Origin: Schmidtea polychroa
Lineage: Eukaryota
Reading direction: 5' to 3'
NCBI GenBank assembly: GCA_044892525.1
Contig: CM097885.1
Span: 12,836,001-12,900,000 of the forward strand
Length of the DNA stretch: 64,000 nt
A model generated the notes under the pieces. It was not told the origin of the DNA. It was given only the letters and a program-made list of their open reading frames with translations, and did no database searches. The position numbers and the translations under genes were made by a program. Shown here one piece after another: positions 11,035-47,043 of this stretch. The first letter of the stretch is position 1. Each line of letters opens with the position of its first letter.

Positions 11035-11625
11035 ATGAGTAAAATTGACGAGTTCTATGAAGAAGCTAAACGAATTGTCGACAGTCACACTTGGTTGAAG
11101 GTGATCCTAATCGGTGACGTACAGTGCGGCAAAACGTCAATCATCAAGAGCTACTACGATGTGTCCATAAATGATGAATATTTCCCAACAATAGGAATTG
11201 ACTACGGATTTAAATTATATCGGTCAAACAATCCCGTTATAAATAAAGAGATTCGGGTCAACATTTGGGACTTTTCCGGTGATCCTGATTTTCTTGAAAC
11301 TCGAAAAGAGTTATATATCAATACGGACATAGTGATGATAGTATATGATTTGACCCGGCCGATAACTTTCACAAATATCAAACAGTGGCTCAACGAATTC
11401 CAGACATATAGCAACCGGAAAATTGAAGAAATTGAAATCGGAATATTAGGAAATAAAACAGATTTGACACTTGATAGAATAGTTGATACAGAAACCGGGA
11501 AAAGTTTCACACAATCCTGGAAAGCTGTCTATTTTGAGACGTCATCTAAGTCGAAGAAAAATATTCAAGAATCATTTGAATATTTAATTGAAACTGCAAT
11601 AATAAAGAAATTGAAGAAGCATTAA
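11035..11625 (+). CDS. RJL-family (Rjl/DNAJC27-like) Ras-superfamily small GTPase, intronless, no J domain
   Basis: G1 GDVQCGKT, effector TIGIDYG, G3 VNIWDFSGDPDFLETRKELY (RJL-like, no catalytic Gln), G4 NKTD and G5 ETSSK. No C-terminal prenylation cysteine. Confidence 0.8.
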   Translation: MSKIDEFYEEAKRIVDSHTWLKVILIGDVQCGKTSIIKSYYDVSINDEYFPTIGIDYGFKLYRSNNPVINKEIRVNIWDFSGDPDFLETRKELYINTDIVMIVYDLTRPITFTNIKQWLNEFQTYSNRKIEEIEIGILGNKTDLTLDRIVDTETGKSFTQSWKAVYFETSSKSKKNIQESFEYLIETAIIKKLKKH

Positions 11626-24460: not shown

Positions 24461-24603
24461 AGTAGTGTGTATATAGCCCTAACCCAAACAACCCTCCCAA
24501 CAAAAACATACCTCCATTACGCTTAAACCATTAGAAAAACAACCTAAAACTTATACTTTTATAGTATTTTAACCCTATATTTTTGAAAACAACCACCCTT
24601 AAT
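24461..24603 (+). repeat. Left outer terminal inverted repeat of Polinton
   Basis: Exact reverse complement of 38448-38590 (143/143, compared block by block). Confidence 0.97.
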
Positions 24604-24615
24604 ATACAACTACTT

Positions 24616-24768
24616 TATAAATCTAAGATACCCACACCATTTTCAATATGGTTTTCAAATTTTTAATATTATTTTATGTTGAAAAAAAACTAACCTCAGA
24701 TGTGATTTGAACCACTGTGCCAGTCTAGCCCACTGCGCTATCTTGCTTTGGATTTTTGTCATTTTTTA
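24616..24768 (+). repeat. Left inner inverted-repeat segment of Polinton
   Basis: Near-identical reverse complement of 37686-37825, with a few substitutions and one ~13 bp indel. Confidence 0.9.
24682..24747 (-). ncRNA. tRNA-like Pol III unit in left inner TIR segment, outward facing
   Basis: Minus strand: A box TAGCGCAGTGG (24740-24730), B box GGTTCAAATC (24713-24704), T8 run (24689-24682). Anticodon arm is missing. Confidence 0.55.
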
Positions 24769-24879
24769 AATTTTTATTATAAAAATCTAAAAATTATACT
24801 GTCACATTATGAAAATAAATATAAAAACATCATAAAAAATAAAAAAACAAAGTATCCAAAAAAAAATTTTTTTCTAAAA

Positions 24880-27800
24880 ATGAATTGTAATATTTGTAAT
24901 AAAGTTTTTAAAAATAAAACTGGATTGATTTCTCACTGTAAATCGAAAGCTCATTTATTAAAAGCAAACAATCTTAATGATACAAATTCAAAAGTTTGTC
25001 CTAAATGTAAAGGAAGATTTCTACATTCTGGATATAATAAACATTTTGAAAATTGTATCGGGAAAAATAGAGAAATATTTACATGTTCTCACTGTAACTT
25101 TTCAACAAAAGTAAATTTCTATTATTTAGAACATATAAAAGAATGTAAAAATAAAAAACAAAATTCTGACGATGAGGAATGTCATTCAGAAGGAGAACCT
25201 GATCATGTTGAAAGAGAAAAATATAACTGGGATGATTTTAATCATGTAGATGAATTTCAATTAGAAATCAATGGACCTATAACTCCTGGAGAATATATAA
25301 ATAAAAATAAAAAAAATATTAAAAATTCTTTCACTGAAGCTTTAAAAAATTATAAACCGACAAGGTATAATGTTATAAAATATAAAATTATAATCAAAGC
25401 AAAATACTGGCGAGGAGCACAAGAAAAGACAACACCTTTAGATGTTGAAATTGGAATACCCTTTAAATATTTATTTTCAACTAAAGGATTTGATAAAACC
25501 ATCAAAGAAATAATTCAAGCAGTAGAAGCAAAACAAGAAGAGGTTGAAAATGAATTAGGAGATTCAAACTTAGTATTCAACTCTTTCCAAACTTTAGTGA
25601 TTGATTATTGGAGAGGATTACCACCTAATCCTAAATCTTATATTCCTACACCCTTTAAATCTAAAAATGTTATAAACATACAGAATAATGATAACAAATG
25701 TTTCGTCTGGTCAATACTTGCACATTTACACCCTCAAGAATCAAACCCTCAAAGAGTTTCAAAATACAAACAATATGAAAATGAATTAATATTTCCCAAA
25801 GGATTCAAACATCCAATGAAACTAGAAGACATTCCAAAATTTGAAAGTTAAAATAATCTTAAAATTAATATTTATGAACGTGTTAAAGGGAAACATGTTA
25901 ATAGCAGAGAAATTATTCCAATTTATATTTCAGATTATGAAGTTAGAGATAATGAACCCCAGGATAACACTAGGGAGATATATCTTTTAATCTTGGAACA
26001 ACAAAATAATCAACATTATGTTTTAATAAAAAACTTTCAAGCTTTTACATCACCAGAGAATCCAACTAGTGGAGGAGGAACATGTAAAAGATGTCTTCAT
26101 TATTCAACAACTAAAAACACTATGATTAAACATACAAGATTTTGTGAAAAAGATGATCCAGCTTTAATTAAAATGCCTAATAATCCCAAGATGTATTTTA
26201 AAAACTTTTCAAATTTACTACAAACAGTAGGAGTGCTTTATGGGGACTTTGAATCTATAAATCGTAAACAAGATTTGGTTAAACAATATTTAAAAATAAT
26301 AGAAAAAAATAAACTCATGGATTCCTGGAACTCCTCAGGAGAGAAGATGAAACCAGAGAGGATGAAAGCCTTTCTAAGAAAAAGGAATAAACCTAATAGT
26401 GTTAAAAAAACTAAACAATTACCATCTGCTTATAAATTATTATTTAAAAGTAATTATCCTGAACTCATAGAATCTAGAGAATATACATTTCGAGGAATTT
26501 CAGAAACAGAAGTCTTGAATCATTTTACTAAAAGTATAAATGATCTAGAACATGAAATATTTAAAGTATTAAAAACAAACTATCCTCAAAATATTTCTAA
26601 TCAACAACAACAAGAATATGAAAACACTTCCAACTGTTGGATGTGTAAACAACCATTTGAAGAGTCTCCGAATATAAAAGTCCTCGATCATGATCATTTA
26701 AAAAAGGAAAATAATTATCGAGGAGCAGCTCATAAAAATTGTAATCTTAATTGTCATACTCCTAAATTTGTACCTGTTATATTTCATAATCTTTTTGGTT
26801 ATGACATACATCTATTTATTAAACATTTAGCAGCAAATGCTAAAAACTCTTTCAAAGTTATAGGACTTACAAAGGAAAAATATAAATCAGTTGAATATGG
26901 AAAATTAAAATTTATAGACTCGTTAAACTTTCTTCAAATGTCTCTAGATGGAATAGCTAAAACAATGAAACCAGAAGATTTTAAAATCACTCGAGAATTC
27001 TTGGAAAAAAATAATATTCCTCTAGAAGAATATCCTACATGTTTAGCAAAAGGAATATATCCTTATGACTATGTTGACTCGTTTGAAAGATATAATGAAA
27101 CAAGTCTTCCTAGCCAAGAAGATTTCTATTCACAACTTCAAAAATATCATATTACAAATCAAGAATATTCTCGAGCAAATAAAATGTGGGAATTATTCAA
27201 GTGTAAAACTTTAGGAGAATATACAAGTATGTATTTATCCTTGGATGTTTATATTCTAGCAGATTGCTTTGAAGAATTTACAAAGTCTTTTGTTCTTAAA
27301 CCTTACAATTATATAACAGCACCCTCTTTAGCTTGGGATACTTTATTATATACCATTTGGACTTTAAATATAGAAGAAGCTGATAAAATTATAGATCTTT
27401 TAACTAACCTCGATATGTTTAATCTAATTAAAACAAACATTAGAGGAGGAGTCTCTTCAGTAATGGGGAATAGAGAAATAAAAGCCTGAAATGCAATAAC
27501 TACTAGCAGAATGCTTTCAAAGACCTCTGATCCATATATAAAAATTAATAATGAGGAATTAAAAGAAATATTAGAAACAATGAAAAATCCTATATTTATA
27601 CTTTATATAGATGCAACAGCTTTATATTCAGGAATTATGACTCAATATTTACCAATGGGTGATTTCATTGAAATAGAATCATCAAAAGAACTTATAAAAG
27701 AAATACTTTCAACACCTAAAGATTCTCCAATAGGTTACTTTGTAGAATGTGACTTATTATATCCAGATGATATAAAATCAGGAACAAGATATTTCCCATT

Positions 27801-29196
27801 AGCTCCTGTAAGAAGAAAGATTGATATCAACGAACTTTCTGAATGGCAAATCTCACAAGATAAACCTCCAACAATGAAACTTCTTTGTGATCAAACAGAT
27901 CGAAGGTTTTATCTTTGTCACTATAGACTCCTCCAATTTTATCTTTCACGAGGTATGATATTAAAAAAAGTTCATAGTGTCATAAGATTTAAACAAGCTC
28001 CATTCATGAAAGCTTTTATCGAGGAGAATATTAGGTGCCGAAACATTGCAAAAAGAGAAGGTAACCTTTTTAAAGATAATAATTATAAACTTTTAAACAA
28101 TTCAGTCTTTGGGAAAACAATGGAGAATGTTGATAAATATACTCATATTGAACTTTTAACTAATACTACCAAAGATATTAAGCGCTATAATCGTATGCTA
28201 GGAAAGCCTACATTTAAAAACGCACAAGTATTTTCTGAAAATCTTACTGCAATAGAACTAAAGAATTTTCAGAAAACATACAACAAACCAATATTTATAG
28301 GGTTTTCAATTGTAGAACTTTCAAAATTACAAATGTATGAAACATATTATAACATCTTACAACCTATATATGGTTCTAATATATCAATGCATGCAATGGA
28401 TACAGATTCAATGTTTTTAACAATAAGAACTCATAATTTACAAAGAGATATAGCCGAAAATCCTATACTTTCAAATTTAATAAATTCATCTGGAGAATTA
28501 TTTTCGTTTAAAGATGAAAAACCTTTTACTCCTATAGAAAATGGAATATTTATTCGTGCTAAACAATATTCATACGAAACATTTAGAAACCCTGAATTTA
28601 TAACTAGATCATTTATATTTAAAACTCCAAAAACAGAAGAAACCATTACACATAGATATCCTATATTTCCTAAAGGACCAGAGGGACAAGAAGAAAAACC
28701 TGTAAAGGATAACAGATGTAAAGGAATACAGAAATTAGTTGCAAAGAATCTTTCTCATCAAGATTATATAGATACATTGAATCCAAATCATAAAGATAAA
28801 CTTGATGAAGTGCATCAGATTAAAAGCGAAAACCATGATATTCACTTGATAGAATCTCAAAAAGTATCATTATCAAATTATGATGATAAGAGATTCATCC
28901 TAAGTGATTTAAAGACAACTCTTCCTATAGGAAATAATTTAATACCGATAATAAAAAATCTAGAAAAGTTGAATAATTTATATGATACAAAAATTACTGA
29001 TCTTGATATTTATAATGTTGAAATCATTTATCCCGAGAGAGAAATCGAGAAGCCTTTATATTCTCAAGTTTTTAATCCTATATGTTTAGAACTTAAATAT
29101 TTTAATACTGATCCTGAATATATAAAAGGTCTAAGTGATAAAGAATTTAAAGATCATAAATTAATGATTCAAAGGTTGGCTTTCAACGATATTTAA
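24880..29196 (+). pseudogene. polB: Protein-primed family B DNA polymerase with N-terminal Zn fingers and an endonuclease VII-like insert; two in-frame nonsense codons
   Basis: The three listed ORFs share one frame, split by TAA 25849-25851 and TGA 27487-27489. Motifs: ExoI YGDFES, EndoVII CWMC..DHDH..RGAAHKNCN, ExoII FHNLFGYD, ExoIII YLSLDV, Pol YIDATALY, KLLNNSVFGK and MDTDS. Confidence 0.93.
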
Positions 29197-29258
29197 TGTC
29201 GACAATTAATTTAAGCAACTATAGCAACCTGATCTACTTTTTTAAAAATACACCCATT

Positions 29259-29858
29259 TTATAAATAAGAATTCTTTAACCATTTCTCTCGTTTAATTTT
29301 TTTAGAATATTCATTAGTTACAACATTAGCGCTTTTTAATCTATTAATATTATTTTTAATATCTTGTATTATTTGATTTGATTTCATTATTTCATCATCA
29401 GTTAAGATTCCATCTTCCAAAGCTTTTAATTGAAATAAAAATAATTTAGAGATTCCTAATTCTATTGATAAACAAACTTCACGATATAAACTTTTCTTTT
29501 TAGAAGTATAAGATAGTGAAACTATTTCAGTTAGGAAACCATCAGCTACAGAAATACTTCCAAGTATTACTGGTGCAAGAGTAACAACTGGTAAAGTTAT
29601 AGGTAAAATAACTGTTAATATTGCAGATGCAAATCCTAAAGAATAACCTATAACTTTTAAAACTGTATTCCCTTTATTCCATCTATTTTTAATTTATTTA
29701 TAATGCTTTAATAAATCTTGTATATGTAAGGTTTCTGATTTAAATTCTTTTACTCTCATAATTTCAAGTTCTGTGGGAGCCGAAGGTGCCGAAGGTTTGG
29801 GGGAATAATATCCTGATGACAATTCTGGGTAAATTTTTTCTTCTCTTACTTCTTCCAT
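29259..29858 (-). pseudogene. Polinton PX-like transmembrane protein with one internal stop (not in ORF track)
   Basis: Hand translation: MEEVREEKIYPELSSGYYSPKPSAPSAPTELE...HYK*IKNRW..two hydrophobic segments..KALEDGILTDDE...SYL*. Premature TAA at 29696-29694. Confidence 0.75.
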
Positions 29859-29866
29859 TTTAATAA

Positions 29867-30844
29867 TTAAAAAAATAAGATTTTATTATCTGGTACCAAT
29901 ACTCGGATATCATAAGAGACTCTTGTTGAGAGAATATCTTTATACAATTCCATCAATGCTTTACGAACTTCATCAACATCAACCTTTTTTTCATAAAATA
30001 TTAAATCTATATATTGTACAAGTGTGCTTTTAAAAATAATATTCTTACTTTTAACTTTATGTGTTTTATGTGAATCAGTTTTATCATGCCAATATCCATG
30101 TGTTAAATCATAACCACTTATTATAACATCACCCTTTTCAAACTTACTATTATAATCACATTTCACAAACCATTTCATTCTTTCATTATCATCATCAAAT
30201 AAAAAGAAATAAGGATCAATAATCTTTACAACCATAAAAACACTCCATTCTTTACTATTTGTTGTTATTAAAGTTGGTTCTATAAAATGTTTATATATAT
30301 GGGGTAATAATGTTTTATTCTGTTCAAATTCAGCAGCTCTTTTTCTAATACTATGTGTGGTGTTAATGTGTGTTGTATGAGATTCTAAATTTGAAAGTCT
30401 TTTATTAAATGATGTAATCATCTCATTTATTATATTATATATTGTATTAAATTTAGTATTCATAATTTGTTTATCTTTAGAATTTAATATACTAGTATTT
30501 AACTTTACAACTTGTTCAGTTAACAGACTTTGTAACTTGTCAAATTTATCATTAAATCGTTGTTCGATATTATTAAGCTTTGATTCCATTGAATCAATTT
30601 TTGTTGTTAATGAACTTTCAATTCTTGTTGTTGTTAAATCAGTATATTTCTTATTAACCGCATCAGCTTCATCAATTGGTAAAGATAAATCTTTTATCTT
30701 GTGTCCATTTAAATTTAAATCACCCTTCATTGAATCACCTCTTTCATTAATATATTTATTTTCTGTTAAAGTTAATATTTCTTCTGTATTAAACCCTGTT
30801 TTTATTGTTCCACCACCTCTATTACATGGAATATAAGAACTCAT
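29867..30844 (-). CDS. Putative virion fibre-like protein
   Basis: YINERGDSMKGDLNLNGHKIKDLSLPIDEADAVNKKYTD resembles phage tail-fibre/trimeric stalk repeats. It is followed by a coiled coil and a globular C-terminus, and lies next to the penton gene. Confidence 0.6.
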   Translation of the reverse strand: MSSYIPCNRGGGTIKTGFNTEEILTLTENKYINERGDSMKGDLNLNGHKIKDLSLPIDEADAVNKKYTDLTTTRIESSLTTKIDSMESKLNNIEQRFNDKFDKLQSLLTEQVVKLNTSILNSKDKQIMNTKFNTIYNIINEMITSFNKRLSNLESHTTHINTTHSIRKRAAEFEQNKTLLPHIYKHFIEPTLITTNSKEWSVFMVVKIIDPYFFLFDDDNERMKWFVKCDYNSKFEKGDVIISGYDLTHGYWHDKTDSHKTHKVKSKNIIFKSTLVQYIDLIFYEKKVDVDEVRKALMELYKDILSTRVSYDIRVLVPDNKILFF

Positions 30845-30870
30845 TTATTAATAATTTAAAATGGACTTCG

Positions 30871-31608
30871 TTAAACCTGTTTCAAATGTAAATACATTGA
30901 AATCTCTTCTCCATTAAAATCAATCAATTCTCCTTCTTGATTAAGAATTTTAAAATTAATATCCATTATATATTTTCTACATAAAGGTAAATAATTTGGA
31001 GGATTCATTCTTTCAACTATTTTATATCCCATAGGAACTGTGTTTGAGGGAAAGGAATATAAAATATTACTTTGTTTACCATTATTATAAGAACCTGTTA
31101 TACAATCGCAATGAATATTTATTGTGTTTGTATTTATTATTTTTATAATATTTTCTGATGTAACTTCAGGTGTGGTATAATGGTTTTGTGTAAATCCTAA
31201 AATTGTTCTAAAGAAACTATTATTTTGAAACCTAAGTCCTATATTCTTTAAAGTCATTATACATTTTGAAGTTGGTAAATCTATTTTAATTTCAATAGCT
31301 CCATTTGTTTTTTTAGAAAGTATATTATTTAAATCTTTTATCTCATAAGCCCCGGGTTCTATTATTATTATGTTATACTCCGTTTTTAGGGGGCTTACAT
31401 AACTAAATGTGTTAATATCTTTAGTTATATTAAAAATAGTATTATAAGCACAAAACCATAATAGACCTAATTCATAATTTAAATTTTGATCTAATTTTAT
31501 TGAATCTTCAAAATTTATAGTAAAGTCTGATTCTTTTGAATTTATAGATAAAGTTCTTGAATATTTATCTGACATTATGTTTACCATTTTTTTTAAATTA
31601 TCTTCCAT
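30871..31608 (-). CDS. Minor capsid protein (penton, single jelly roll)
   Basis: SDFTINF..IKL..NYELGL, IEPGAYEI, INIHCDCITGSYNNG..SNILYSF and LNQEGELIDFNGE are Polinton penton motifs. Confidence 0.85.
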   Translation of the reverse strand: MEDNLKKMVNIMSDKYSRTLSINSKESDFTINFEDSIKLDQNLNYELGLLWFCAYNTIFNITKDINTFSYVSPLKTEYNIIIIEPGAYEIKDLNNILSKKTNGAIEIKIDLPTSKCIMTLKNIGLRFQNNSFFRTILGFTQNHYTTPEVTSENIIKIINTNTINIHCDCITGSYNNGKQSNILYSFPSNTVPMGYKIVERMNPPNYLPLCRKYIMDINFKILNQEGELIDFNGEEISMYLHLKQV

Positions 31609-31611
31609 TTC

Positions 31612-32097
31612 TTATAGTAGAGATTTTAAATCATTATAAATTTCTTGGATTAAGGAAGTGAAACAGTAGTCCCCTTTGGACAGAGTCCCTTGAGATTTAT
31701 TCAATCTATACAAAACATATAAGCTTAAAATACCACATATTTTAGTATTATTAGGTTGAACTTGTAAAGAATTAAAAGTATAGTCTCTCTTCGAGCTTAC
31801 TCCGGACAGATAGTCTTCAACTTCTTTAGTGGGTTTAATCCTAAAAGAATCAAAGTAGATTGGGACTTCGTCCATATATATACAAACCCAATGAGATCCT
31901 TTTTCATTTGAATTTTGATAATTGATTATTATATTCTTTGGAGTGACCCTTTGACCTTTGACCTTCGGACCTTTCAATTCATTATTCATTAATATTTTTA
32001 TTTTTAAATTTAAATAATCTGCATAATCTTTTAAATCAAAATTTGTTTTTGCATTTATTCCAAATGTTTTTAAAAAATCTAATATTGAAGGAGTCAT
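31612..32097 (-). CDS. Adenain-type cysteine (maturation) protease
   Basis: IINYQ...GSHWV (His), YFDSF (Asp), Q...CG (Gln, Cys). The usual FDSFG reads FDSFR. Confidence 0.9.
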   Translation of the reverse strand: MTPSILDFLKTFGINAKTNFDLKDYADYLNLKIKILMNNELKGPKVKGQRVTPKNIIINYQNSNEKGSHWVCIYMDEVPIYFDSFRIKPTKEVEDYLSGVSSKRDYTFNSLQVQPNNTKICGILSLYVLYRLNKSQGTLSKGDYCFTSLIQEIYNDLKSLL

Positions 32098-32792
32098 TTT
32101 ATATACTTATTAAATTTATCTTTTGAAATTATTCCTTGTTTTAACAAATCTTTAGAAATCTTTAAAATATCAGAATCTAAATTATTATGTCCTGCTTTTT
32201 TAGCTGCTAATAGTTTTCTTAATTCAATAAAAAGATTGATTGGGTTTGCAGCCACAGGCATCCCCTTACCCTCTGTAACAACATAACCCCTTTCATTTTT
32301 ATTTAAATAATTCTTTAAATCTTGAATATGTTTTGCTTTAGAACTACCATGTATTTTTTTTATTAAGTTTAAATATATATAAAATATTTGATTATTAATT
32401 GTTATTGTTTGAAAACCTCTAGGATCATAACCTATAGTAGGTATAATTGATGGAGCTAGTGATGTATTAATTTTAAAATTAATTGAAGTCTTAAGAGGTG
32501 TTAATCTTGAAAGAAATTCATCTTCTTCTAAATCAATAGTATTTCTACGTTTTCTTAATCCCATTAATCTTGATAATTCCTTTTTAGAAGGTTCTATAGC
32601 TTTAAGTTCAGGGGTTAGAGGAGCTTCTATAGTTTTAAGTCCCTCTATAGCTTTAATTGTTGGCCCCTGTTGTTGTATTATTACCTCATTTAATATTATA
32701 GATTCGGCATGTTGAGTTGTATCTTTTTTATTATATTTATCTTGTTCAGATTGTAATTTTTTTAAAAGTGCTAATCTTTCTTCATATACCAT
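32094..32792 (-). CDS. Polinton PZ-like core protein
   Basis: C-terminal GKG-x-NPINLFIELRKLLAAKKAGHNN..DILKISKDLLKQGII matches the conserved Polinton PZ C-terminal motif as I recall it. Confidence 0.65.
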   Translation of the reverse strand: MVYEERLALLKKLQSEQDKYNKKDTTQHAESIILNEVIIQQQGPTIKAIEGLKTIEAPLTPELKAIEPSKKELSRLMGLRKRRNTIDLEEDEFLSRLTPLKTSINFKINTSLAPSIIPTIGYDPRGFQTITINNQIFYIYLNLIKKIHGSSKAKHIQDLKNYLNKNERGYVVTEGKGMPVAANPINLFIELRKLLAAKKAGHNNLDSDILKISKDLLKQGIISKDKFNKYIK

Positions 32793-32814
32793 TTTTATGG
32801 TATTAAAAATGGTA

Positions 32815-33411
32815 TCAATGGGGTTCGAAGGGCTTCAAGTATAAACCTTTACCATTTTTAGTTTTACAAAGGCATCCATTCTTTAAAGATTTACATATTT
32901 TTTTTAAATCATCTTTATCTTTTGAAGATAAAGATTCAGATGTAGAAATTTGATTTTTTAAAAAATCATTTAAACCTCTACCTTTATAAGGATCAAGATA
33001 GAGACCTTTGCCCTGAGACTTTTGCCGACTCCCCTCATATGGATTAAGATAGAGACCCTTTCCAACGGACACTCCCCCTTTAGCTTGCCCTACCTTCTTC
33101 ATTGAATCGATTTCAGTTTGTAGTTTTTCTTTTTCTAGGTCTGTCTTTTGAGATTCTTTAGCTTTTTGAACTGTAGTTGCAATTCCTCCAGCTATTCCAG
33201 CAGCACCTGATAAACCAGCAATGATTGCAGGTATTAAAGCAGCTAATGGAAGAATGCCTCCTTCTTTAGCTTCGTGGAGCTTCGCTCTAACTTGTTCTTT
33301 TACATGTTTTCCAATAAAATATTTTTTACCATCAATTACTACTGATTTATTTTTATTTGAATTTATTAATTCTTGCAAAGATTCTTCAGTAGAGGAACTC
33401 TTCGAGGTCAT
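32815..33411 (-). CDS. Adenovirus pX-like / membrane-active core protein (PW-like)
   Basis: EGG-ILPLAALIPAIIAGLSGAAGIAGG resembles the adenoviral pX C-terminal peptide after a GG cleavage site. Three GKGLYLxP(Y/F) repeats. Confidence 0.7.
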   Translation of the reverse strand: MTSKSSSTEESLQELINSNKNKSVVIDGKKYFIGKHVKEQVRAKLHEAKEGGILPLAALIPAIIAGLSGAAGIAGGIATTVQKAKESQKTDLEKEKLQTEIDSMKKVGQAKGGVSVGKGLYLNPYEGSRQKSQGKGLYLDPYKGRGLNDFLKNQISTSESLSSKDKDDLKKICKSLKNGCLCKTKNGKGLYLKPFEPH

Positions 33412-33426
33412 TTTATAATATATAAA

Positions 33427-34239
33427 ATGGATGTACGAAGTCCAATAATTTGGAAACCAATTTTAAATAGACATAAATCTAAATTTAATAATAAAGTATT
33501 TCCTGATAATTTTAGATTATTAATTGTTGGTTCTTCTGGATGTGGAAAGAATGTACTTGTTTTGAAAATGTTACTTGAAGATGGTTTTTTAGATTATAAT
33601 AATTTAATCTTTTATTCTACAACCATAAATCAACCAGAATTACAACTTTTGAAATGTGGATTTGAAAATAAATTAACTAAAAAAGCTATAATTGATATTT
33701 TTAAAAATCAACATAGATGTCCTGAAGAAGTTTTTCAACCTTGTGATATGGTTGATTGGTATAAGGAAAAGATTTTAGAATCAGATATTAGTAATAAAAA
33801 TGATTACATCTGTGAAGATGAGGGGCAGGCAGAGGCGATTCAAGTTTTATTCTCTAATAAACCTGAAGATGTTTTACATTGTGATTTACTTCCTAAAGAT
33901 AAAAATAATCTAGTTATATTTGATGATGTTGTTAACATGAAAAATCAAGAGATTCAAAAGAGTTACTTTACAAGAGGAAGACATAATAATTGTAATGTTA
34001 TTTATATATCTCAAACTTATTATGCTTTAGATAAAAACTCTATAAGAAATAATTCTAATTGTTTTATATTTTTTAAATTAGATCGCCGTGATAAGAATAT
34101 GATTAATAATGATTTATTTTCAAATGTTGAACCTGAAAAGAATATGTTTGATATGTTTGTTGATAATCATTGGAAAGAAAAATATAATTATATTTATTTG
34201 GATAGAGAAGAAGCTGAAATATGGAAAAGTTTGTTTTAG
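33427..34239 (+). CDS. A32/FtsK-like genome packaging ATPase
   Basis: Walker A GSSGCGKN (usual T/S replaced by N), Walker B LVIFDD, RGRHNN and YISQ. True ATG at 33427. Confidence 0.92.
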   Translation: MDVRSPIIWKPILNRHKSKFNNKVFPDNFRLLIVGSSGCGKNVLVLKMLLEDGFLDYNNLIFYSTTINQPELQLLKCGFENKLTKKAIIDIFKNQHRCPEEVFQPCDMVDWYKEKILESDISNKNDYICEDEGQAEAIQVLFSNKPEDVLHCDLLPKDKNNLVIFDDVVNMKNQEIQKSYFTRGRHNNCNVIYISQTYYALDKNSIRNNSNCFIFFKLDRRDKNMINNDLFSNVEPEKNMFDMFVDNHWKEKYNYIYLDREEAEIWKSLF

Positions 34240-35606
34240 AAATCTGTTTTCTGTAACTCATTATTATAAAATCTACCTAATATTTTTTCATTATTTAAAT
34301 CAATGATGCTATATGTTATTGGAGTTGTATAATGTATTTTATTTATAATAAAAATTTCATTTGTCCATTTTGCTGTGAATCCTTTTTCAAATTTATTTTT
34401 ATATTTAAATATTCTTACTCGGTCACCAATTTTAAACTTTGGTTTTATAGGGGTTGTATCAACAATAACATCATTTTCAATATTTACCACTTTAATGGTT
34501 TCAGGATTCATGGAAGCATTTAAAGGTGTTGATTTTATAGAACTATGTACATCATTATTATATTCATTTACAATCTTTTGTAACCACTCATTGTTCCATT
34601 TTTGTTTTCCAATAGCAGTAAAATATTTCCACATTTTATTTTTTAATGTTCTATTTAATCTTTCAAATACGACTGCTTTTCCTTCGTTTTCTGTTGAATA
34701 TAATTTAATATCATTTTCATTTAAAAACTTTGTAAAAACTTTGTTATAAAATTCTGTTCCTTTATCACACCATAAATATTTTGGAATTCTTTGATGTTCT
34801 TCAAATATATTTTCAAATGCTTCTGTAATGGAATATCCTGTTTTATTTTCTAAACACCTTGCAAAGGCAATCCTTGTATATAAATCTATTACAGTTAAAA
34901 TTATTTTATATTTTTCAGGGTCTGATGATTTGGTTGGCATAAAGACTAAATCTGCAGACCATGTTTGATCTTTTTCATGTACTTGAACTTTTAAATATTT
35001 TTTATTTTTTCTAAATTCATGGTGTAATTCGTTGGCATATTTTATTTGTGATTCTGTTGGGGTTAATAAACTAGTCTTGGATATATTCTCGAGGGATCTT
35101 TCAGCATATGCTTGTTCAATAATCTTTTTATTAGCAACATCTTTTGCCATCCTTGGTAAACTAGCACCTATGAAAATCTTACCTTTCATTGCTAATTTAA
35201 CTAGAGCTCTTTGAATCTTTTCTTGGGTTGATGGATTTTGGATACTATTTAAATCATGTATTAAATTAACATCTGCAACATGTCTATCTCTAAGATCTTC
35301 TGAATTGTAAGCAATATCAATTTTTAAAGCTGCTTGGTCGATTCTATTTATTGGTTCTTCTCCTTGTTTGGGATTATTATTTTCATCTAATCTAATATCT
35401 AATCTTGTTCCTGGTCCGGTATAGTTGTGTTTAAATAAATGTCTTTCACCTGGATATTTTTCTGTAGTAAAAGGTTTTAATATTGAAGATGTCACTTTTG
35501 AAGATTGTAGATCGCCTCCTATATGTTTTTTAGTTTTTAGATGACTTGCTTTATGATGTCTTGTAACTTGACAATTACAACTTTCACATCTCCAATAGAG
35601 AGACAT
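34236..35606 (-). CDS. Retroviral-like (rve) integrase with N-terminal Zn finger and PLA2-like domain
   Basis: DDE motifs WSADL, WCDKGTEF and FERLNRTLK; C-terminal FKIGDRVRI. N-terminal CxxC..H..H finger and HNYTGPGT...PINRIDQAALKIDIAY...RHVAD. Confidence 0.92.
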   Translation of the reverse strand: MSLYWRCESCNCQVTRHHKASHLKTKKHIGGDLQSSKVTSSILKPFTTEKYPGERHLFKHNYTGPGTRLDIRLDENNNPKQGEEPINRIDQAALKIDIAYNSEDLRDRHVADVNLIHDLNSIQNPSTQEKIQRALVKLAMKGKIFIGASLPRMAKDVANKKIIEQAYAERSLENISKTSLLTPTESQIKYANELHHEFRKNKKYLKVQVHEKDQTWSADLVFMPTKSSDPEKYKIILTVIDLYTRIAFARCLENKTGYSITEAFENIFEEHQRIPKYLWCDKGTEFYNKVFTKFLNENDIKLYSTENEGKAVVFERLNRTLKNKMWKYFTAIGKQKWNNEWLQKIVNEYNNDVHSSIKSTPLNASMNPETIKVVNIENDVIVDTTPIKPKFKIGDRVRIFKYKNKFEKGFTAKWTNEIFIINKIHYTTPITYSIIDLNNEKILGRFYNNELQKTDF

Positions 35607-35623
35607 TTTAAAATGTTAAAATA

Positions 35624-36916
35624 TTAAGAATCTCCCCTAACATTTTCGATTATTGAAATCTTTCCACCATATAATTTCATTTCTATTTTCTTTTCTTCTA
35701 ATATTAATGTATATACTTTAGCTTTAAAATTAGAATCCTTTGTTACATGAAGTGTAACATCAACATTATTTATGGCTAGGCGATCATCTTGGTCTGAAAC
35801 ATTTATACAAAATATAGAATATAAATTTTTGAAATCTTCTAAACTTAATTGCGGTTCAACTTTGAAATCATAACATGTTTCAATATAATTTAGATATGGG
35901 AATATGTTTTCATTATTTTCAATATTAAATTCCATTCTATTTATTGGATAATAAGAACTATTTAATTGAATTTGGATTGTTTTTAAATTATCAACTCCAA
36001 TCTTTTGAATAAACAAGTTGTTATTTTTTTGGAAAGATGAATCTACTTCTTTGAATCCAATCAAGATATATCTTGGTCGGTATGCTAAATTTGCTACCTT
36101 TATAGAATATGTTGAACCCTCTGTCATACTAAATTCACTACAGATTCTATTTAAATAATTTACATTTATAGACTTGTTGGAATTTAATCTTTCAAGGAGT
36201 TTAATCTCAGAATGTGGATTTAATGTCCATTCAGGTATATGCAATTCAAGTGTTGATATTTTTAATTTAGCTGTTGTATCTGCAGCTCCATAGAACAATC
36301 TTTTATCACCTTCTACTCTATTACAAACTAATTCTATAAAAACATTATGAAGTATACGGTTATAGTTTTGAATGAATCCAAATAAGTGTTTTAATTCAAA
36401 ATAACCTTCAAATTTTTTAGATTTATAAAGTTCAGCTCTTTTATAGTAACCATAATTTATATCTAAACCATGTTTATCTAAATCTCCTTTATTAACATCA
36501 GGAATCCAGCCTGTTAATTCACCATATTCATTTTTATAATCACAACCAGTCAAAATAAAATTTAACATTGTAGAATATACTCCCGGATGCAAAACAGTTT
36601 CAATTTCTGACGATCCTAGTTTTAATCTCATGTTGGAGAATAAATTTGGAAAGAAATTATTTTCTAGGGTTATATCTTTGTTTGCTTCAATTTCTAATTT
36701 GATTTTATAATATAATTTGGCATTACAAATATCTATAGGGTTTGATGTTTGAAGAGATTGAAAAACTATATCACCCCTACGATTTAAGTTTGCAATAGAT
36801 CCTGAAGTTGGGGAGATTTTAAGTACATCGTTTTTCTTGATTTCATGAGTAAATTCTTTATTATAATCAAGATTTAATTTATTTTTTTCTTGAATTTTAA
36901 GATTTATTTTATTCAT
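35624..36916 (-). CDS. Major capsid protein (double jelly roll)
   Basis: 430 aa, beta-rich, with NLFSNMRLKLGSSEIETV..PG..STM, RPRYILIGF, IQLNSSYYP and FKNLYSIFCINVS. Size and position fit Polinton MCP. Confidence 0.85.
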   Translation of the reverse strand: MNKINLKIQEKNKLNLDYNKEFTHEIKKNDVLKISPTSGSIANLNRRGDIVFQSLQTSNPIDICNAKLYYKIKLEIEANKDITLENNFFPNLFSNMRLKLGSSEIETVLHPGVYSTMLNFILTGCDYKNEYGELTGWIPDVNKGDLDKHGLDINYGYYKRAELYKSKKFEGYFELKHLFGFIQNYNRILHNVFIELVCNRVEGDKRLFYGAADTTAKLKISTLELHIPEWTLNPHSEIKLLERLNSNKSINVNYLNRICSEFSMTEGSTYSIKVANLAYRPRYILIGFKEVDSSFQKNNNLFIQKIGVDNLKTIQIQLNSSYYPINRMEFNIENNENIFPYLNYIETCYDFKVEPQLSLEDFKNLYSIFCINVSDQDDRLAINNVDVTLHVTKDSNFKAKVYTLILEEKKIEMKLYGGKISIIENVRGDS

Positions 36917-36972
36917 TTTTATATATTAAAATTTACACACACACAATAGGATTAATTAAATATATTATGTAA

Positions 36973-37054
36973 GCCATTATAGCGGAGTGGGAATAGGCTT
37001 CAATTTTATCACCGGGAGTACCGGGTTCAATTTTCGATTTTGGTCAATTTTTTT
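36973..37054 (+). ncRNA. tRNA-like Pol III unit 1, degenerate cloverleaf
   Basis: A box TAGCGGAGTGG 36980-36990, decayed B box GGTTCAATT 37024-37032, tRNA-length spacing, partial acceptor stem GCCA/TGGT and T7 run 37048-37054. Confidence 0.55.
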
Positions 37055-37215
37055 CGATATTTTTTTTCAACGGAATCTGATTCAGCGTACTGATTTTAGT
37101 ATATATTTAAATTTTCAGATGGATCTGAGTGGTAGTTGTCGAGAAAATGAATAATTAATTATTAATTTCATCAATAAATAGTCACACATTAACAACCTAT
37201 TTTATATTGAGTATA

Positions 37216-37296
37216 GCTCTAATAGCTTAGTGGTAATAGCACTCGACTGCATTGCCAATACCAATGGGTTCAAATCCCATTTCGGTCATTTTTTTT
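37216..37296 (+). ncRNA. tRNA-like Pol III unit 2, tRNA-Cys-like 5' half, anticodon stem unpaired
   Basis: A box TAGCTTAGTGG 37223-37233, D stem GCT/AGC, loop CTGCATT, perfect T arm ATGGG-TTCAAAT-CCCAT 37264-37280, 73 nt body and T8 run 37289-37296. Confidence 0.7.
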
Positions 37297-37459
37297 CAAA
37301 ATTTTTTTTTAACGAAATATTGATCAGCATACTCGATTTAGTACTTGTACAAATTTTTAAGGAGATTGGTCAACGGCAACTCTTGGAAATTTAAGATCAA
37401 AAACGTTTTAACTTAAGCTACCAAAAATTAATATATCCAATAAAAAAATATTTATAAAA

Positions 37460-37729
37460 ATGGATGAGTTAAAAGAAAGAATGAGAAATGAATTGAATGA
37501 AGTTAAACATAAGAGAATGAAAAGAAGAGAAGAAGAACCATTAGAATACATCAAAGAGTTGATGGTAGATAATGAAAAGTATCGACATTTTTATATGAAG
37601 GCTGTAGATGTTGCTGATATAAGATTGAAGAAAATGAAACAATTACAGGAAAGAGTTAAAGAAATTGAATCGATTATTTATAGTCTAAAAAATGACAAAA
37701 ATCCAAACCTAGATAGCGCAGTGGGCTAG
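37460..37729 (+). CDS. Small charged coiled-coil hypothetical protein of Polinton
   Basis: 89 aa ORF with the same TATAAAAATG start context as other element genes. It ends inside the inner TIR segment. Confidence 0.5.
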   Translation: MDELKERMRNELNEVKHKRMKRREEEPLEYIKELMVDNEKYRHFYMKAVDVADIRLKKMKQLQERVKEIESIIYSLKNDKNPNLDSAVG

Positions 37730-37825
37730 ACCGGCACAGTGGTTCAAATAGTTTTTTTTCAACATAAAATAATATTAAAAATTTGAAAATAATATTGAAA
37801 ATGGTGTGGGTATCTTAGATTTATA
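37686..37825 (-). repeat. Right inner inverted-repeat segment of Polinton
   Basis: Reverse complement of 24616-24768. Confidence 0.9.
37707..37759 (+). ncRNA. tRNA-like Pol III unit 3 in right inner TIR segment
   Basis: A box TAGCGCAGTGG 37714-37724, GGTTCAAAT 37741-37749 and T8 run 37752-37759. Confidence 0.5.
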
Positions 37826-37916
37826 TTTTATTTTATTTTATTTATTTTTATTTATTTTATTTATTTTATTTTATTTTATTTTTTAAACATAAATATGAAA
37901 AAAAAATATTGAAACG

Positions 37917-38277
37917 GGTGTGGTGGCGAACCGGTAATTATCGCCACCAGTCTTTCGAACACCCCCGGATCGATTCCATAATGTGCACATTTATTTCTCA
38001 GTTGTTTTCGGACCTCTTTCGGATTCACTTTCGAATTCATTTGTACTTTCGAGCAGCACACTTAAAACGCCGATGAAATCGTATTCGAGCGAGAAGCGAA
38101 TAATAAGGTGTGCTGCTATTATCGGATTGATTCTGATGTATGAGTCTGGCCAGCTTGTATATTAGAAGAGATTTGATAAACGAAAGAGGTTGAAATGATC
38201 CGGATCAAAAAAACTGTTGAGGGGACAGTGAAAAAAAAAAAATACCACTGTCCCCTCAGAGCAGTTTTACTATTTTT
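37917..38277 (+). ncRNA. Candidate ~360 nt structured Pol III RNA (VA-RNA/TMER-like)
   Basis: A-box-like TGGCGAACCGG 37924-37934 and B box GGATCGATTCC 37967-37977. GC-rich island with multiple nested 7-13 bp perfect helices, ending at T4/T5 runs 38265-38277. Confidence 0.55.
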
Positions 38278-38447
38278 CATTTATTTTTTAATTTATATAA
38301 TTTAAAATCAATAATCTGATAAAGATCAACTCCGGAGTTTGATTGCGATCAAAAGTAGTGTGTATATAGCCCTATCCCAAATAGCCCTCTAACTTTTTCA
38401 TAATGCCATTTTCTTTTTTATTCTCTTTTTAGTTTGAGGCTTTAAAG

Positions 38448-38590
38448 ATTAAGGGTGGTTGTTTTCAAAAATATAGGGTTAAAATACTATAAAAGTATAA
38501 GTTTTAGGTTGTTTTTCTAATGGTTTAAGCGTAATGGAGGTATGTTTTTGTTGGGAGGGTTGTTTGGGTTAGGGCTATATACACACTACT
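38448..38590 (-). repeat. Right outer terminal inverted repeat of Polinton
   Basis: Exact reverse complement of 24461-24603. Confidence 0.97.
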
Positions 38591-42500: not shown

Positions 42501-43983
42501 TATAGCAGGGCTGGCCAACAAGTCGATCTCTCGCAATTTGTGTTAGGGATATTTAAATAATTAATTTATAAATAAAATATATATTGTATTATAAGTATCA
42601 AATACTATTATATAGTAAAAGTATAATAAGTATAAATGCTGGCAATCATAATTATCATTGTTATTAAATTAATTAATTCGCCATTAAAATCGGTTGTTTT
42701 AATATTACCAGATTTAGGCAACAATTTGTAATTAAATATATTTTTAGAAAAGTAAGCTTTTATTATTAACAATTTGGATTCCAGTATACCCATGAATATG
42801 AGTAGTAAACCGAAGAAATCTAAAACTTATAACTTCAATGAAGAGATTTCTTTTTTACAATGGTGAATGATAAATGCTGTTATTTAATACGCCTTACCTC
42901 GGTAGCCATTGTTAAGAATGGTAATCTGGAGAGACAATTACATAACAAGAATCAAACTGATTATCCATCAAATTCAGAACTGAGAAAAGATAAAGTTAAG
43001 GATCTTAAAACTCGATTAGCAAATCAACAAAGCGTTTTTAAAAAGCCAATGTAGATGTCACAAGCAGTAACTACTGCATCATTTAAAGTAAGCTATCTCT
43101 TAGGCAAAAAATGCATTTTCCGACTGTGAATTTGTAAAGGAATTATTTTTGTAAATGTGGGATTCACTTTTTAACGATTTTAAGAACAAGAGTTAAATTG
43201 TTGCTGCAATTCAGGATCTACAATTGTCTCGAAACACAGTGGTGCGAAGAATTGAAATGATGAGTAGGAGTGTAAAAGAGCATTTAATTAAGGATATTAG
43301 TAGATGTTCTTGTTTTTCCATTCAGTGTGATGAATCGACAGATATAAGTGATACAACATAATTATTTATTTTCGTTCGTATGGTTTTTAAGGATTTTACA
43401 TCTAAAGAAGAATTGTTGGGTATGATTTCTTTGACGGAAAGGACTATAGGTGTCGACATATTCAAAGCCTTTAAAAACTTGATCCGTGATTTGGAAGTAC
43501 CACTTTCCAAATTAGTCTCAATAACAACGGATGTTGCAGCTGCAATGATAGGTTGCAAAAATGGATTTATAGTCCTATGTCGAGCTGAAGATGTATTCCC
43601 AGGCTTTTTGAGCTATCACTGCATAATTCACCAGCAAGTGTTAGCTAGTAAGAGACCAAACACAATAGAGGTAATGTACGTAGCATTTAAAATTGTTAAT
43701 TCAATTCGAGGAAGTTCCCTCAAAAGACGTCTCTCCGAACTGCAGCTCGATGAAGGCCAACCTGAATTATTACTACATAACGATATCAGATGGCTAAGCA
43801 GAGGTAAATTTCTGCAGCGATTTCGTGATTTATTGCCCGAAATTATGGGTTTTCTTCACGAACAAGATGAAAACTGTGAAAATTTAAAGGATAAAACTTG
43901 GTTTGGTGACTTGGCATTTATTACCGATTTTACTTCAATATTAAGTCATTTAAATTTAGAATTACAAGGTAAATTAAACAGTA

Positions 43984-44822
43984 TGTCGTAGTTTGCTCCT
44001 TCTTGATTGATGAAGGACTTTCTTTGACCTTTTCATTAAAAGAATCCGCTTTTAGATTATTAAAATATTGGCAGCTGAGCATATCATGAAATTATCAGCC
44101 CATCATTGTTTCTGGATAGCTTTTCTGCATTTGATATTTCAATGTAAATATTAGAAAGAGAATGGTGCATGACCTTTGCATTTGTTAGCGTGTCAGGGAT
44201 TAGTTGATTATTGATAAACGTTAGAACAATGCAAGATAACATAATAACAGAAATTATTCCTAATACAACTTTATCTTTACCACCTGTGAAACACCTGTGA
44301 AACACCTGTGAAATGAGTTACAGCTTAATGAGAAGAAACGGTATTTTGCATTAAAGGCGCATATTTAGTTCCAGCAGATTTATAAATTAATGAAGATTCG
44401 ACGGAAAGTTCGCCTTCAACTGAACTATTGATTGGAACAACAATTGCATCGCATTGTAATTTATAAACATCTCCAGACCAAAATATAATTCTTCTGTTAA
44501 TATCAGGTAGAAATAAATCGTCAACATAATTGTATTGAATAAAAATGTCATAAGTAATATTAATAAAGAAATGCAGGTCAATATTTTCCAGATTTTCATT
44601 CTTATTTGAAATACTCCTTGAGAAAAGTAATTCTATCGGAATATTCCGTGAACCAATCATTGATAATATAATTCATAATTAATTATTAAAAAAAATAGCA
44701 AGATCACTATAATTTGTATTTTAGCATAAAAAACTGCATAATCAAACAAATGATTTTTTTCATAATAACATAAATGTTTTTTATACAATTTAAAGTTTTT
44801 GATATTTGATTAACTCACTACA
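43984..44822 (-). mobile_element. TGT...ACA-bounded insertion with 5 bp TSD (solo LTR or Ginger-like non-autonomous element)
   Basis: CAGTA duplicated at 43979-43983 and 44823-44827. Ends are TGTCGTAG / CTCACTACA, and the transposase sequence resumes directly after it. Confidence 0.75.
44325..44660 (-). pseudogene. Captured GDAP2-like macro-domain N-terminal fragment
   Basis: DINRRIIFWSGDVYKLQCDAIVVPINSS...LIYKSAG matches the start of a macro domain (W.GD...L..DAIV...AG). A CFTG-coding 11-mer follows, tandemly triplicated at ~44281-44313. Confidence 0.6.
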
Positions 44823-45250
44823 CAGTAATTGATATGATCAGCTACATAGACGCATTTAACAAATTTTATATTGCTAATAGAAGATCTGCAACAAAATAAT
44901 TTGAATCATTTTCCAACCATGGCGGATAACCTACAAAAACATGAAAATATTAAGTATAAGATCGACAAATATGTCACGGAAATCCAAAAAGTAATTGATG
45001 ATTTTGAAGTAAGATTCCAGGATTTTGAAAAAATTAAATAGTGGAATTTATATCTTTTCCTTTTAAAAAATATTTAAGTGTGAAACGCATTAGCCAAAAA
45101 ATTTCAGATATATTTCATATGAATCAAAAGGCATTAGAAAATGAAATTATAATTTTGCAAACTGACCAAAACCTACAAGCCAGAAAATCTGAAGAAGATT
45201 TTTGGAAATATGTCAGCCGAGAAAAATATCCCAATGTCACCAAATGTAGC

Positions 45251-45314
<64 letters not shown>

Positions 45315-47043
45315 TTGTTTCGGATCTACATACCTTTGCGAATCGGCATTTTCATACTTGAAGCTAACGAAGACTAAACAACGTTCTGTCCTTACTGATT
45401 CCCATACAGAAGACTCATTAATAATATCTTTGTCGGGATATACACCTGATTATGATTCCTTGGTTAGAGACATGCAAACTCAGTCTTCCCATTAATGTTG
45501 AGGGAACAAAGTATCTGTATTTAACTGTGGCTACTTTGAATTAATAAATATTGTTAATATTATTCTTTTAATTCCCCTAGACGTGAGTATTTAGAGCTTT
45601 AAATACTTATTGTTGATGTTTTTTTTACGTAGGTAGATAAGTACAATAAGCCCAATCTATATTTCAGTACTAGATGCACTTACGAGATTTTTTATATTTA
45701 CGAACAAATATTACAATAACTATACATTGCAGTTGATAAAAAAAATAAATTGCATTTTAAGTTAGTAAAGATATATCTCGAAAAAGTGTTGTAAAATCAA
45801 ATATAGGAATATAATAATAATTTTATAGAGATAATATGTTGAATATATTTAGGAGAAAATAATTTATTTTTTATAAAATAGATATTGAAAGATTTTGGAG
45901 AATATTTGGGCAAATTGGTGAGAGGAAACTTAATAATACCTAATAATGAAACAGATGGGAGTTTGAATATATTTGTGTCCATTATGTTTGGATATTTCTA
46001 ACACTTTTGTCATTTTGAAAAGTCTTTCAATAATTTGATTTAGATATCATTGCTTATCTCTTTGAATCTTTTGTTTAAGACGTTGATTCTTTCATTTTAG
46101 AATTTGATGGGAATAATAAGACATCAAAGAAAATATCAATCTTTGCGTTTCACTATCCAGTGTTAGATTCCTTGTTGAATATATTCCATTGAATATATTT
46201 TATTTCCAGACATATTGGAGTTTATTTTCCCGAAATACTTGTTTAGGAATAATAAATATTATATTATTATATAATTTACACTTTGGTCAATATAAGATGT
46301 TTTCCAACAATCTAACAAAGTCATGAATTTATTGAAATGAGAAAACATTATTTAATATTATTAAACAATCACTGTTAAAACAAAATACGATTATTCAAAT
46401 TATTTAGGCATAAATTTCAGTTTGAATGTTTTTTAATTGAGTTTAGGCGCCTTTAATAAAAAAACAAAATATTTCCCATTGAATTTCATTTAGTCATTTA
46501 TTTCAATTGATCTCAATAAATATTCCAGGAAAAATATTTCTAGAATGAAAAATATTTTTTTACAATAAAAAATTAATTTATTCAGCAAATAACCAAAAGT
46601 TACAATATCAAAAGCATTATGAAAAGAAATTAAAAAAATTTTTTTTTCGATTATTTTAAACAAAAAATGTTTTATTTTACAATTAATTCATTTTGTTTTC
46701 TAATTTATTTTTAATTTGAGAGAGATTACAATTTTATTGATTAAAATTATAATATAATTTTTCAGAAATTTTCTATTTTCATATTTCTATGAGATTTTAT
46801 CGGTTTATTTATTATATAGGGAAATATGAATTATTTTAAAATTAATACGAAAGAAAATTCATTTGATGATTGTTTGAAACGATATTAATTTATTTGCTAT
46901 TTGGTTTGAATGAATCACAATTATTTTTTTTAAATATTTTAATAGTCAATTTTCTTTATATTGATTGCAAAAAATTTTCAGTTTGTTTAAATATTTCCCA
47001 TTTTCCTTAATAAATACTTTGCAAATTTGTAGAATATCTCACT

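What the first reader, a model, noticed from the sequence alone, without database searches (positions are those of the whole stretch)
37916..38203. Large nested multi-helix RNA fold behind a refolded tRNA-type promoter
Seen helices: GGGTG 37916-20 / CACCC 37960-64; TGGTGGCGA 37921-29 / TCGCCACCA 37941-49; CCGGATC 37965-71 / GATCCGG 38197-203; ACCTCTTTCG 38012-21 / CGAAAGAGGT 38181-90; GATTCA 38022-27 / TGAGTC 38141-46 (G-U); and AGCAGCACAC 38052-61 / GTGTGCTGCT 38108-17. The last closes a three-way junction (CGAT-GAA-ATCG and TATTCG/CGAATA). There is also a palindrome AATGTGCACATT at 37980-91 and a recurring TTTCG motif. All helices nest, and the G-U pairs favour the plus strand. As in VA RNA, the A and B boxes are embedded in non-tRNA stems. 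Inference: a functional structured ncRNA of unknown class.
Basis: partly seen in the sequence, partly recalled or inferred. Interest (0 to 1): 0.8.

Follow-up and report, generated by a model that had tools for sequence, protein, structure and literature searches.

The report
Folded RNA gene in Polinton ends
A virus-like jumping gene (Polinton) with thousands of copies in this animal genome carries near its ends a roughly 350-base stretch whose base pairing is kept across three lineages; it is likely copied by RNA polymerase III into an RNA that would engage the host's double-stranded-RNA machinery, as adenovirus VA RNA does.

Summary
The fold is real (z -5.4; plus strand favoured) and lies in the right terminal inverted repeat of a 14.1-kb Polinton/adintovirus (24461-38590). 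About 2,950 copies exist; 40 of 40 sampled ones adjoin Polinton-end DNA, so it is not a free SINE. Across three lineages the 38052/38117 helix has changes on both sides at 6 of 12 pairs. Its GATTCA/TGAGTC helix and three-way junction are not supported. A box 37924 and B box 37968 form one of only two such pairs in the element. One laid run (RNA is a guess) has a contig with an adaptor-like end at 37916/17 that bridges the T4, and another has A-tails on the plus strand; these are hints, not proof. Five sister Polintons lack the RNA, so it is accessory. No Rfam family matches; it is not 7SL-derived. Best reading (0.4): a VA-like dsRNA decoy. Rival (0.25): a small-RNA precursor. The scan noted this folded stretch before on other copies in this genome. 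I found no paper describing it.

The parts
24461..38590 (.). Polinton/Maverick (adintovirus-type) element, ends AGTAGT...ACTACT, 6-bp target duplication GAAAAG
   Evidence: Pfam pPolB, A32 ATPase, rve integrase with PLA2-like domain, double jelly-roll capsid
37682..38590 (.). Right terminal inverted repeat as seen in other copies; this copy's left repeat lacks the part that holds the RNA
   Evidence: 23 outward-facing pairs 10-21 kb apart among the first 100 motif hits
37916..38270 (+). Structured RNA gene, about 350 nt (ends inferred)
   Evidence: z -9.7 plus, -6.2 minus; covariation; adaptor-like 5' end in one contig
37916..37964 (+). tRNA-type head refolded into a stem-loop; A box at 37924-37934
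   Evidence: A box exact in 81 of 87 distinct copies
37968..37976 (+). B box GATCGATTC; overlaps the 5' strand of the 37965/38203 helix
   Evidence: motif in 84 of 87 copies
37980..37991 (+). 12-nt palindrome, role unknown
   Evidence: exact in 77 of 87 copies; hairpin probability 0.48
38005..38008 (+). Internal T4, possible leaky terminator
   Evidence: matched in 87 of 87 copies; bridged by contigs in X3, X4, X7
38011..38191 (+). Closing helix 38011-21/38181-91 and the multibranch domain inside it
   Evidence: probability 0.91; 99% of cells paired but 8 of 11 pairs never vary
38052..38117 (+). 12-bp helix 38052-63/38106-17 with a variable cap
   Evidence: 6 of 12 pairs changed on both sides across three lineages
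38119..38179 (+). 25-27-bp G-U-rich hairpin, 61 nt, 7-nt loop
   Evidence: probability 0.97; 8 G-U and 0 A-C; 11 of 25 pairs vary on one side, 99.3% of cells paired
38192..38213 (+). A-rich linker of variable length with palindrome GATCCGGATC
   Evidence: alignment A2; palindrome in 80 of 87; A-tailed loose ends at 38194 and 38196 in X1
38210..38268 (+). 3' hairpin with oligo-A loop, ending in T4; T5 at 38273 and T6 at 38284 follow
   Evidence: probability 0.96-0.98; pair 38222/38254 is A-U in 14, G-C in 13, G-U in 4 of 34; T runs
37216..37288 (+). Neighbouring tRNA-like unit ending in T8
   Evidence: Rfam tRNA 32.4 bits, gathering 29; not called by ARAGORN
36978..37054 (+). Neighbouring degenerate tRNA-like unit ending in T7
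   Evidence: sequence; about 74% alike to the 37216 unit's 3' part in related copies
37712..37759 (+). Short tRNA-like unit inside the terminal repeat, ending in T8
   Evidence: sequence

Best explanation
This is a structured RNA gene fixed in the ends of one set of Polinton lineages, likely transcribed outward by host RNA polymerase III from internal A and B boxes into an RNA of about 350 nt that would act as a double-stranded-RNA mimic, binding and distracting the host's Dicer-type or other dsRNA-binding silencing factors. Shown: location, copy number, helices, promoter motifs, absence from sister elements. Hinted: transcription from 37916/17 on the plus strand through the T4. Inferred: Pol III as the enzyme, the 3' end near 38268-38277, and the decoy role. 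The long G-U-rich hairpin next to the invariant closing helix would be the bait; the A-rich tracts may bind poly(A)-binding protein.
For: Selection on pairing: 97.3% of cells paired, 23 cells changed on both sides, 0 of 500 shuffles as high (34 copies); 8 pairs changed on both sides among 13 copies of three lineages. RNA rather than DNA: 8 G-U and 0 A-C in the long hairpin (p 0.004). Variation in the RNA (0.026-0.045) is like the capsid gene's (0.025) and below that of flanking spacers (0.068-0.152). Only 2 A+B-box pairs in 14.1 kb, one heads this RNA; one X4 contig starts with an adaptor-like end at the predicted start and bridges the T4; X1 has A-tailed ends at 38194 and 38196. Accessory: absent from 5 of 5 sister elements fetched at length. 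Precedent: VA RNA uses A/B boxes and is a Dicer decoy (PMC7589676, passages). Planarian Polintons are piRNA-silenced (PMC8532177, passages), relevant only if the host is a planarian, which is my inference.
Against: No binding or functional data. The runs are only guessed to be RNA, are contigs, and the 5'-end contig has depth 3.8; contig depth cannot rank parts. Related copies can beat shuffles without structure, and the fold was derived from one member. Watson-Crick pairs drift to G-U in 6 cases and to A-C in 1, only p 0.06. Most both-side changes sit in one helix and rest on 2-3 old, decayed copies; one of the 8 pairs is partly inflated by two misaligned rows (L159, L166 in A3). The 3' arm of the hairpin looks sequence-constrained, which fits a small-RNA precursor better. 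The other units end in T7-T9, so T4 may be a weak stop, but some termination at 38008 is not excluded.
Confidence: 0.4

Rival explanations
1. The RNA is a Pol III precursor from which the 61-nt hairpin is cut to give a microRNA-like guide from its 3' arm, as in gammaherpesvirus TMERs or the BLV microRNA cluster.
For: Hairpin is pre-miRNA-sized. In the 11 loop-proximal pairs, 5 of 8 tolerated transitions recur on the 5' arm and 0 of 8 on the 3' arm (p 0.013, window chosen after looking; whole hairpin 7 of 16 against 3 of 18, p 0.088). tRNA-like units lie beside it.
Against: The hairpin is internal, with no free 3' overhang; the rest of the 350 nt is as conserved; no Rfam microRNA match on it; no complement of 13 or more exact bases in the element.
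Confidence: 0.25
2. The A/B boxes matter as DNA: TFIIIC and Pol III keep the element ends open or insulated, and the RNA is a by-product.
For: Four tRNA-type units cluster at the end; three are degenerate. The unit lies in the terminal repeat, facing outward.
Against: It does not explain both-side changes 100-300 nt past the B box or the G-U bias.
Confidence: 0.1
3. A BC1-like translation regulator: refolded tRNA head, A-rich tracts and 3' stem-loop bind poly(A)-binding protein or initiation factors.
For: Three A-rich tracts of variable length and a 3' hairpin are kept in all three lineages. The BC1 layout is recalled, not tested.
Against: The conserved core is the double-stranded domain; loose ends in organism B contigs differ after GATCCGGATC.
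Confidence: 0.1
4. A SINE-like passenger captured once and spread by hitch-hiking, with no use to the element.
For: tRNA head plus A-rich 3' part; patchy on the capsid tree (3 changes); element ends are modular.
Against: 40 of 40 sampled copies adjoin Polinton-end DNA; the RNA is kept while the terminal module is swapped; pairing is conserved.
Confidence: 0.1
5. A cis element for replication or packaging (single-stranded DNA fold at the terminus, or a packaging RNA).
For: It lies in the terminal repeat of a protein-primed element.
Against: Absent from 5 of 5 sister elements that have polymerase, penton, protease, ATPase and integrase matches and from this copy's left end; strand-specific G-U pairs.
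Confidence: 0.05

Closest known systems
Adenovirus VA RNA I/II
   Same: Internal A and B boxes inside non-tRNA stems, T-run terminator, long imperfect helices, carried by a protein-primed double-jelly-roll DNA virus lineage.
   Different: About 350 nt (VA about 160 nt, recalled); no Rfam VA match; GGGU/ACCC forms the first stem here, not a central-domain stem; 5' and 3' ends do not form one terminal stem; thousands of integrated copies in an invertebrate-like host; A-rich tracts.
Murine gammaherpesvirus 68 TMERs and BLV Pol III microRNA cluster
   Same: Cluster of tRNA-like Pol III units in a viral genome; a pre-miRNA-sized hairpin behind a tRNA-derived head.
   Different: The head is not a cloverleaf (ARAGORN 0); the hairpin is buried in a multibranch domain; no small-RNA product shown. 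Seen as search listings and abstracts only.
tRNA-derived SINEs and BC1 RNA
   Same: tRNA-type head, A-rich 3' part, high copy number.
   Different: No free copies among 40 sampled; moves with the Polinton; strong conserved double-stranded core. BC1 features are recalled.
Alpha-type adintovirus / Polinton (the carrier)
   Same: pPolB, integrase, A32 ATPase, capsid, PLA2-like domain (PLA2X marks Alpha virion modules, PMC8502044 passages), terminal repeats, 6-bp target duplication.
   Different: That paper has 0 occurrences of 'VA RNA' or 'non-coding'; here the PLA2-like domain lies in the integrase reading frame.

Membership tests
VA RNA | Internal A and B boxes | tested here: met
   A box 37924, B box 37968; 81 and 84 of 87 copies
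VA RNA | GGGU-ACCC tetranucleotide stem in the central domain | tested here: not met
   GGGU 37916-19 and ACCC 37961-64 pair, but as the first stem; definition from PMC7589676 passages
VA RNA | Terminal stem, central domain, apical stem; match to the Rfam model | tested here: not met
   No VA match at gathering or among 16 matches up to E 10; different topology
VA RNA | Pol III transcription ending at a run of four or more T | tested here: inconclusive
   T4, T5, T6 at 38265-38289; contigs cannot show the polymerase or the 3' end
VA RNA | Binds PKR, Dicer or Exportin-5 | not testable with these tools
   needs biochemistry
TMER-type tRNA-miRNA RNA | tRNA cloverleaf head | tested here: not met
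   no ARAGORN call; no Rfam tRNA match at 37916
TMER-type tRNA-miRNA RNA | Hairpin processed to a microRNA | not testable with these tools
   no raw small-RNA reads were offered
tRNA-derived SINE | Dispersed free copies with their own target duplications | tested here: not met
   40 of 40 sampled loci adjoin Polinton-end DNA; one old 5'-less fragment (L142) has unassigned flanks
7SL/Alu-derived RNA | Homology to host SRP RNA | tested here: not met
   host SRP found; local score 20, reached by 338 of 500 shuffles
Self-cleaving ribozymes and other Rfam families | Rfam model match | tested here: not met
   hammerhead core also not seen by eye
Polinton/adintovirus (carrier) | pPolB, integrase, ATPase, capsid, terminal repeats, 6-bp target duplication | tested here: met

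The most novel reading that the evidence does not exclude
A Polinton lineage evolved its own VA-RNA analogue: an abundant Pol III RNA, built on a captured tRNA promoter, that blunts RNA silencing and helped these elements reach thousands of copies. It would extend viral Pol III decoy RNAs from vertebrate viruses to endogenous adintoviruses of an invertebrate.
Probability: 0.3. Interest if true: 0.85.

Novelty: new variant of a known kind. Interest (0 to 1): 0.62.

Why it matters
How Polintons persist and multiply under piRNA and RNAi control is open, and my searches found no non-coding RNA described for them. A conserved, accessory, likely expressed RNA in some lineages but not in sisters of the same genome gives a natural comparison and a direct test by RNA depletion. 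It bears on whether decoy RNAs arose more than once among protein-primed DNA viruses. In practice, about 3,000 copies with internal A tracts may give a strong unannotated signal in oligo-dT libraries of this animal.

Tried and rejected
Rfam: no family on the RNA. 7SL origin of the head: rejected. A-to-G differences in run X1 as editing: not needed, the same letters are genomic in other copies. A-tails as true polyadenylation: more simply oligo-dT priming on the genomic A-rich linker. The look-up of sequencing runs: no RNA holder listed on record; 4 of 21 listed runs were laid. A second laying, meant to add a DNA control and more organism B variants, got no answer, so that control is missing. 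Relatives outside this genome: viral contigs gave 0 capsid relatives, 0 and 15 motif matches, the 15 no longer than about the motif; 13 metagenome capsid loci (25-52% identical) had no RNA match, most too short or ordered differently. Antisense to the element's own genes: nothing above chance. Host naming through a Rab-like protein gave no names. RNAalifold's consensus keeps the three hairpins but prefers other long-range pairs, with a covariation term of only -1.43, so the outer architecture is less sure. Papers: searches listed no report of this RNA; subscription papers, Repbase and supplements were not seen.

Full report
Context. The finding lies in a 14,130-bp element (24461-38590) that begins AGTAGT, ends ACTACT and has GAAAAG on both sides. 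Pfam finds a protein-primed B polymerase, an A32 ATPase, an rve integrase with a PLA2-like domain and a double jelly-roll capsid (4 of 13 frames carry these). This is a Polinton/Maverick of adintovirus type. The genome G000 has 781 Mb, mostly in four large contigs, and the window is about 25% GC. I infer an invertebrate, probably a planarian flatworm; no call named it.

Observation. The fold beats 100 of 100 shuffles (z -5.38) and favours the plus strand. GATTCA/TGAGTC and the three-way junction do not hold. In their place is a 61-nt hairpin, 38119-38179, with 17 Watson-Crick, 8 G-U and 2 other pairs. A further hairpin with an oligo-A loop (38210-38268) precedes T4, T5 and T6 runs, so the unit likely spans about 37916-38270.

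Copies. Two 17-nt motifs match 2,935 and 2,987 places, with 0 for the reversed controls. Among the first 100 hits are 23 outward-facing pairs 10-21 kb apart and 3 inward ones: the RNA lies in the terminal repeat and faces out. This copy's left repeat lacks it. I fetched 40 loci from those 100 hits, favouring unpaired ones; all 40 adjoin Polinton-end DNA on at least one side. It lies beside 20 of 20 close capsid genes and 9 of 16 picked for being unusual. Five of the seven without it were extended over the element: polymerase, penton, protease, ATPase and integrase matches are there, but no RNA match and no A+B-box pair. On a capsid tree the label needs 3 changes and one origin was not recovered in 200 bootstrap trees, so gain, loss or exchange of ends has occurred. 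The RNA is accessory.

Covariation. Loose ends from laid runs led to two more lineages in G000 with different terminal modules. On 34 representatives of 87 distinct full-length copies (35 clusters, one with a large deletion left out) my 104-pair structure has 97.3% of cells paired and 23 cells changed on both sides, 0 of 500 shuffles as high; slid controls pair 40-45%. On 13 hand-picked copies of three lineages (two old copies that break off early were left out) 8 of 59 pairs change on both sides, 6 of them in the 38052/38117 helix. Two rows there are misaligned in the 5' part, and the tool warns that kinship alone can beat shuffles. The long hairpin varies mainly between G-U and Watson-Crick pairs and closes its two mismatches in the other lineages. 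Variants seen in organism B runs at 38124, 38125, 38140, 38141, 38142, 38164, 38060 and 38109 also keep these pairs. Variation within the RNA (0.026-0.045) equals that of the capsid gene (0.025) and is below the spacers (0.068-0.152) (loci were picked by a motif inside the RNA, which fixes 17 columns). The outer helices are nearly invariant and so say little; RNAalifold offers other long-range pairs.

Promoter and transcription. A strict scan of the element finds two A+B-box pairs, at 37223 and 37924. The head is not from 7SL. Three short tRNA-like units nearby end in T7-T8. I laid 4 of 21 listed runs, all contigs and only guessed to be RNA. In X4 one contig (depth 3.8) has a loose 5' end that reads like a template-switching adaptor (recalled) joined to the letters at 37917, and it runs to 38123, across the T4. 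Contigs of X3 and X7 also bridge the T4; the two listed X1 contigs that cross it have too few letters beyond it to count. X1 has 3 + 3 contigs with A-tails at 38194 and 38196, best read as oligo-dT priming on the A-rich linker of a plus-strand RNA. Together these are hints of a plus-strand transcript that starts where predicted, not proof.

Mechanism. I commit to a VA-like decoy (0.4): Pol III makes an abundant RNA whose long G-U-rich hairpin engages Dicer-type or other dsRNA-binding factors. Only the anatomy is shown. The main rival (0.25) is a small-RNA precursor: near the loop the 3' arm is invariant while the 5' arm drifts (0 of 8 against 5 of 8, p 0.013 after choosing the window; p 0.088 overall). 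The two are not exclusive, since VA RNA is both decoy and Dicer substrate. DNA-level boundary, BC1-like regulator, passenger and replication roles rank lower for the reasons listed.

Comparison and novelty. It works like VA RNA or TMERs in outline but fails membership of either, and of SINEs and 7SL derivatives. Papers seen: PMC7589676, PMC8502044, PMC8532177 and bioRxiv 10.64898/2025.12.11.693146 as passages; all others as listings with abstract starts. Nine searches listed no report of such an RNA in Polintons. Earlier notes of this scan flagged the same folded stretch on other copies; I used them as leads only. New here are covariation over three lineages, the corrected structure, absence from sister elements and the transcription hints. 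Verdict: real, a new variant of viral Pol III structured RNA, function untested; interest 0.62.

Noticed in passing
window 38354-38590: The last ~240 bp form a module with its own inverted ends (AGTAGT...ACTACT); the module differs between lineages while the RNA is kept.
   Followed up: partly
window 24461-24768: This copy's left terminal repeat lacks the stretch matching 37826-38447, including the RNA.
   Followed up: yes
window 24706-29196: The polymerase frame of this copy is interrupted by two in-frame stop codons.
   Followed up: no
L087 (G000:C1:141000-151000): Tandem array of about 1,245-bp period whose units share 290 bp (83%) with window 37132-37424.
   Followed up: partly
L185-L193 (G000:C2:31.93-31.98 Mb): Host 7SL genes lie in a tandem array with a 593-bp period.
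   Followed up: no
L119 (G000:C1:9865400-9868400): A ~1.9-kb derivative with two outward-facing RNA cassettes around a capsid-gene fragment.
   Followed up: no
window 37461-37729: Small coiled-coil-like ORF next to the capsid start, also present in sister elements that lack the RNA.
   Followed up: partly
window 38003-38051: The TTTCG motif recurs at about 13-nt spacing; some copies (L159, L166, L167, L169, L172) lack one unit, which suggests tandem duplication.
   Followed up: partly
L143 (G000:C4:85527040-85530061): An old lineage has the RNA cassette upstream of a decayed capsid gene on the same strand, the reverse of the window's layout.
   Followed up: no
window 11035-11625: Single-frame Rab-like small GTPase with only three close relatives found (71-96%).
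   Followed up: partly
window 13848-15332, 43362-45495, 58570-60927, 50603-50959: Frames that look like hAT-type transposase remnants and a GIY-YIG-like fragment (by eye).
   Followed up: no
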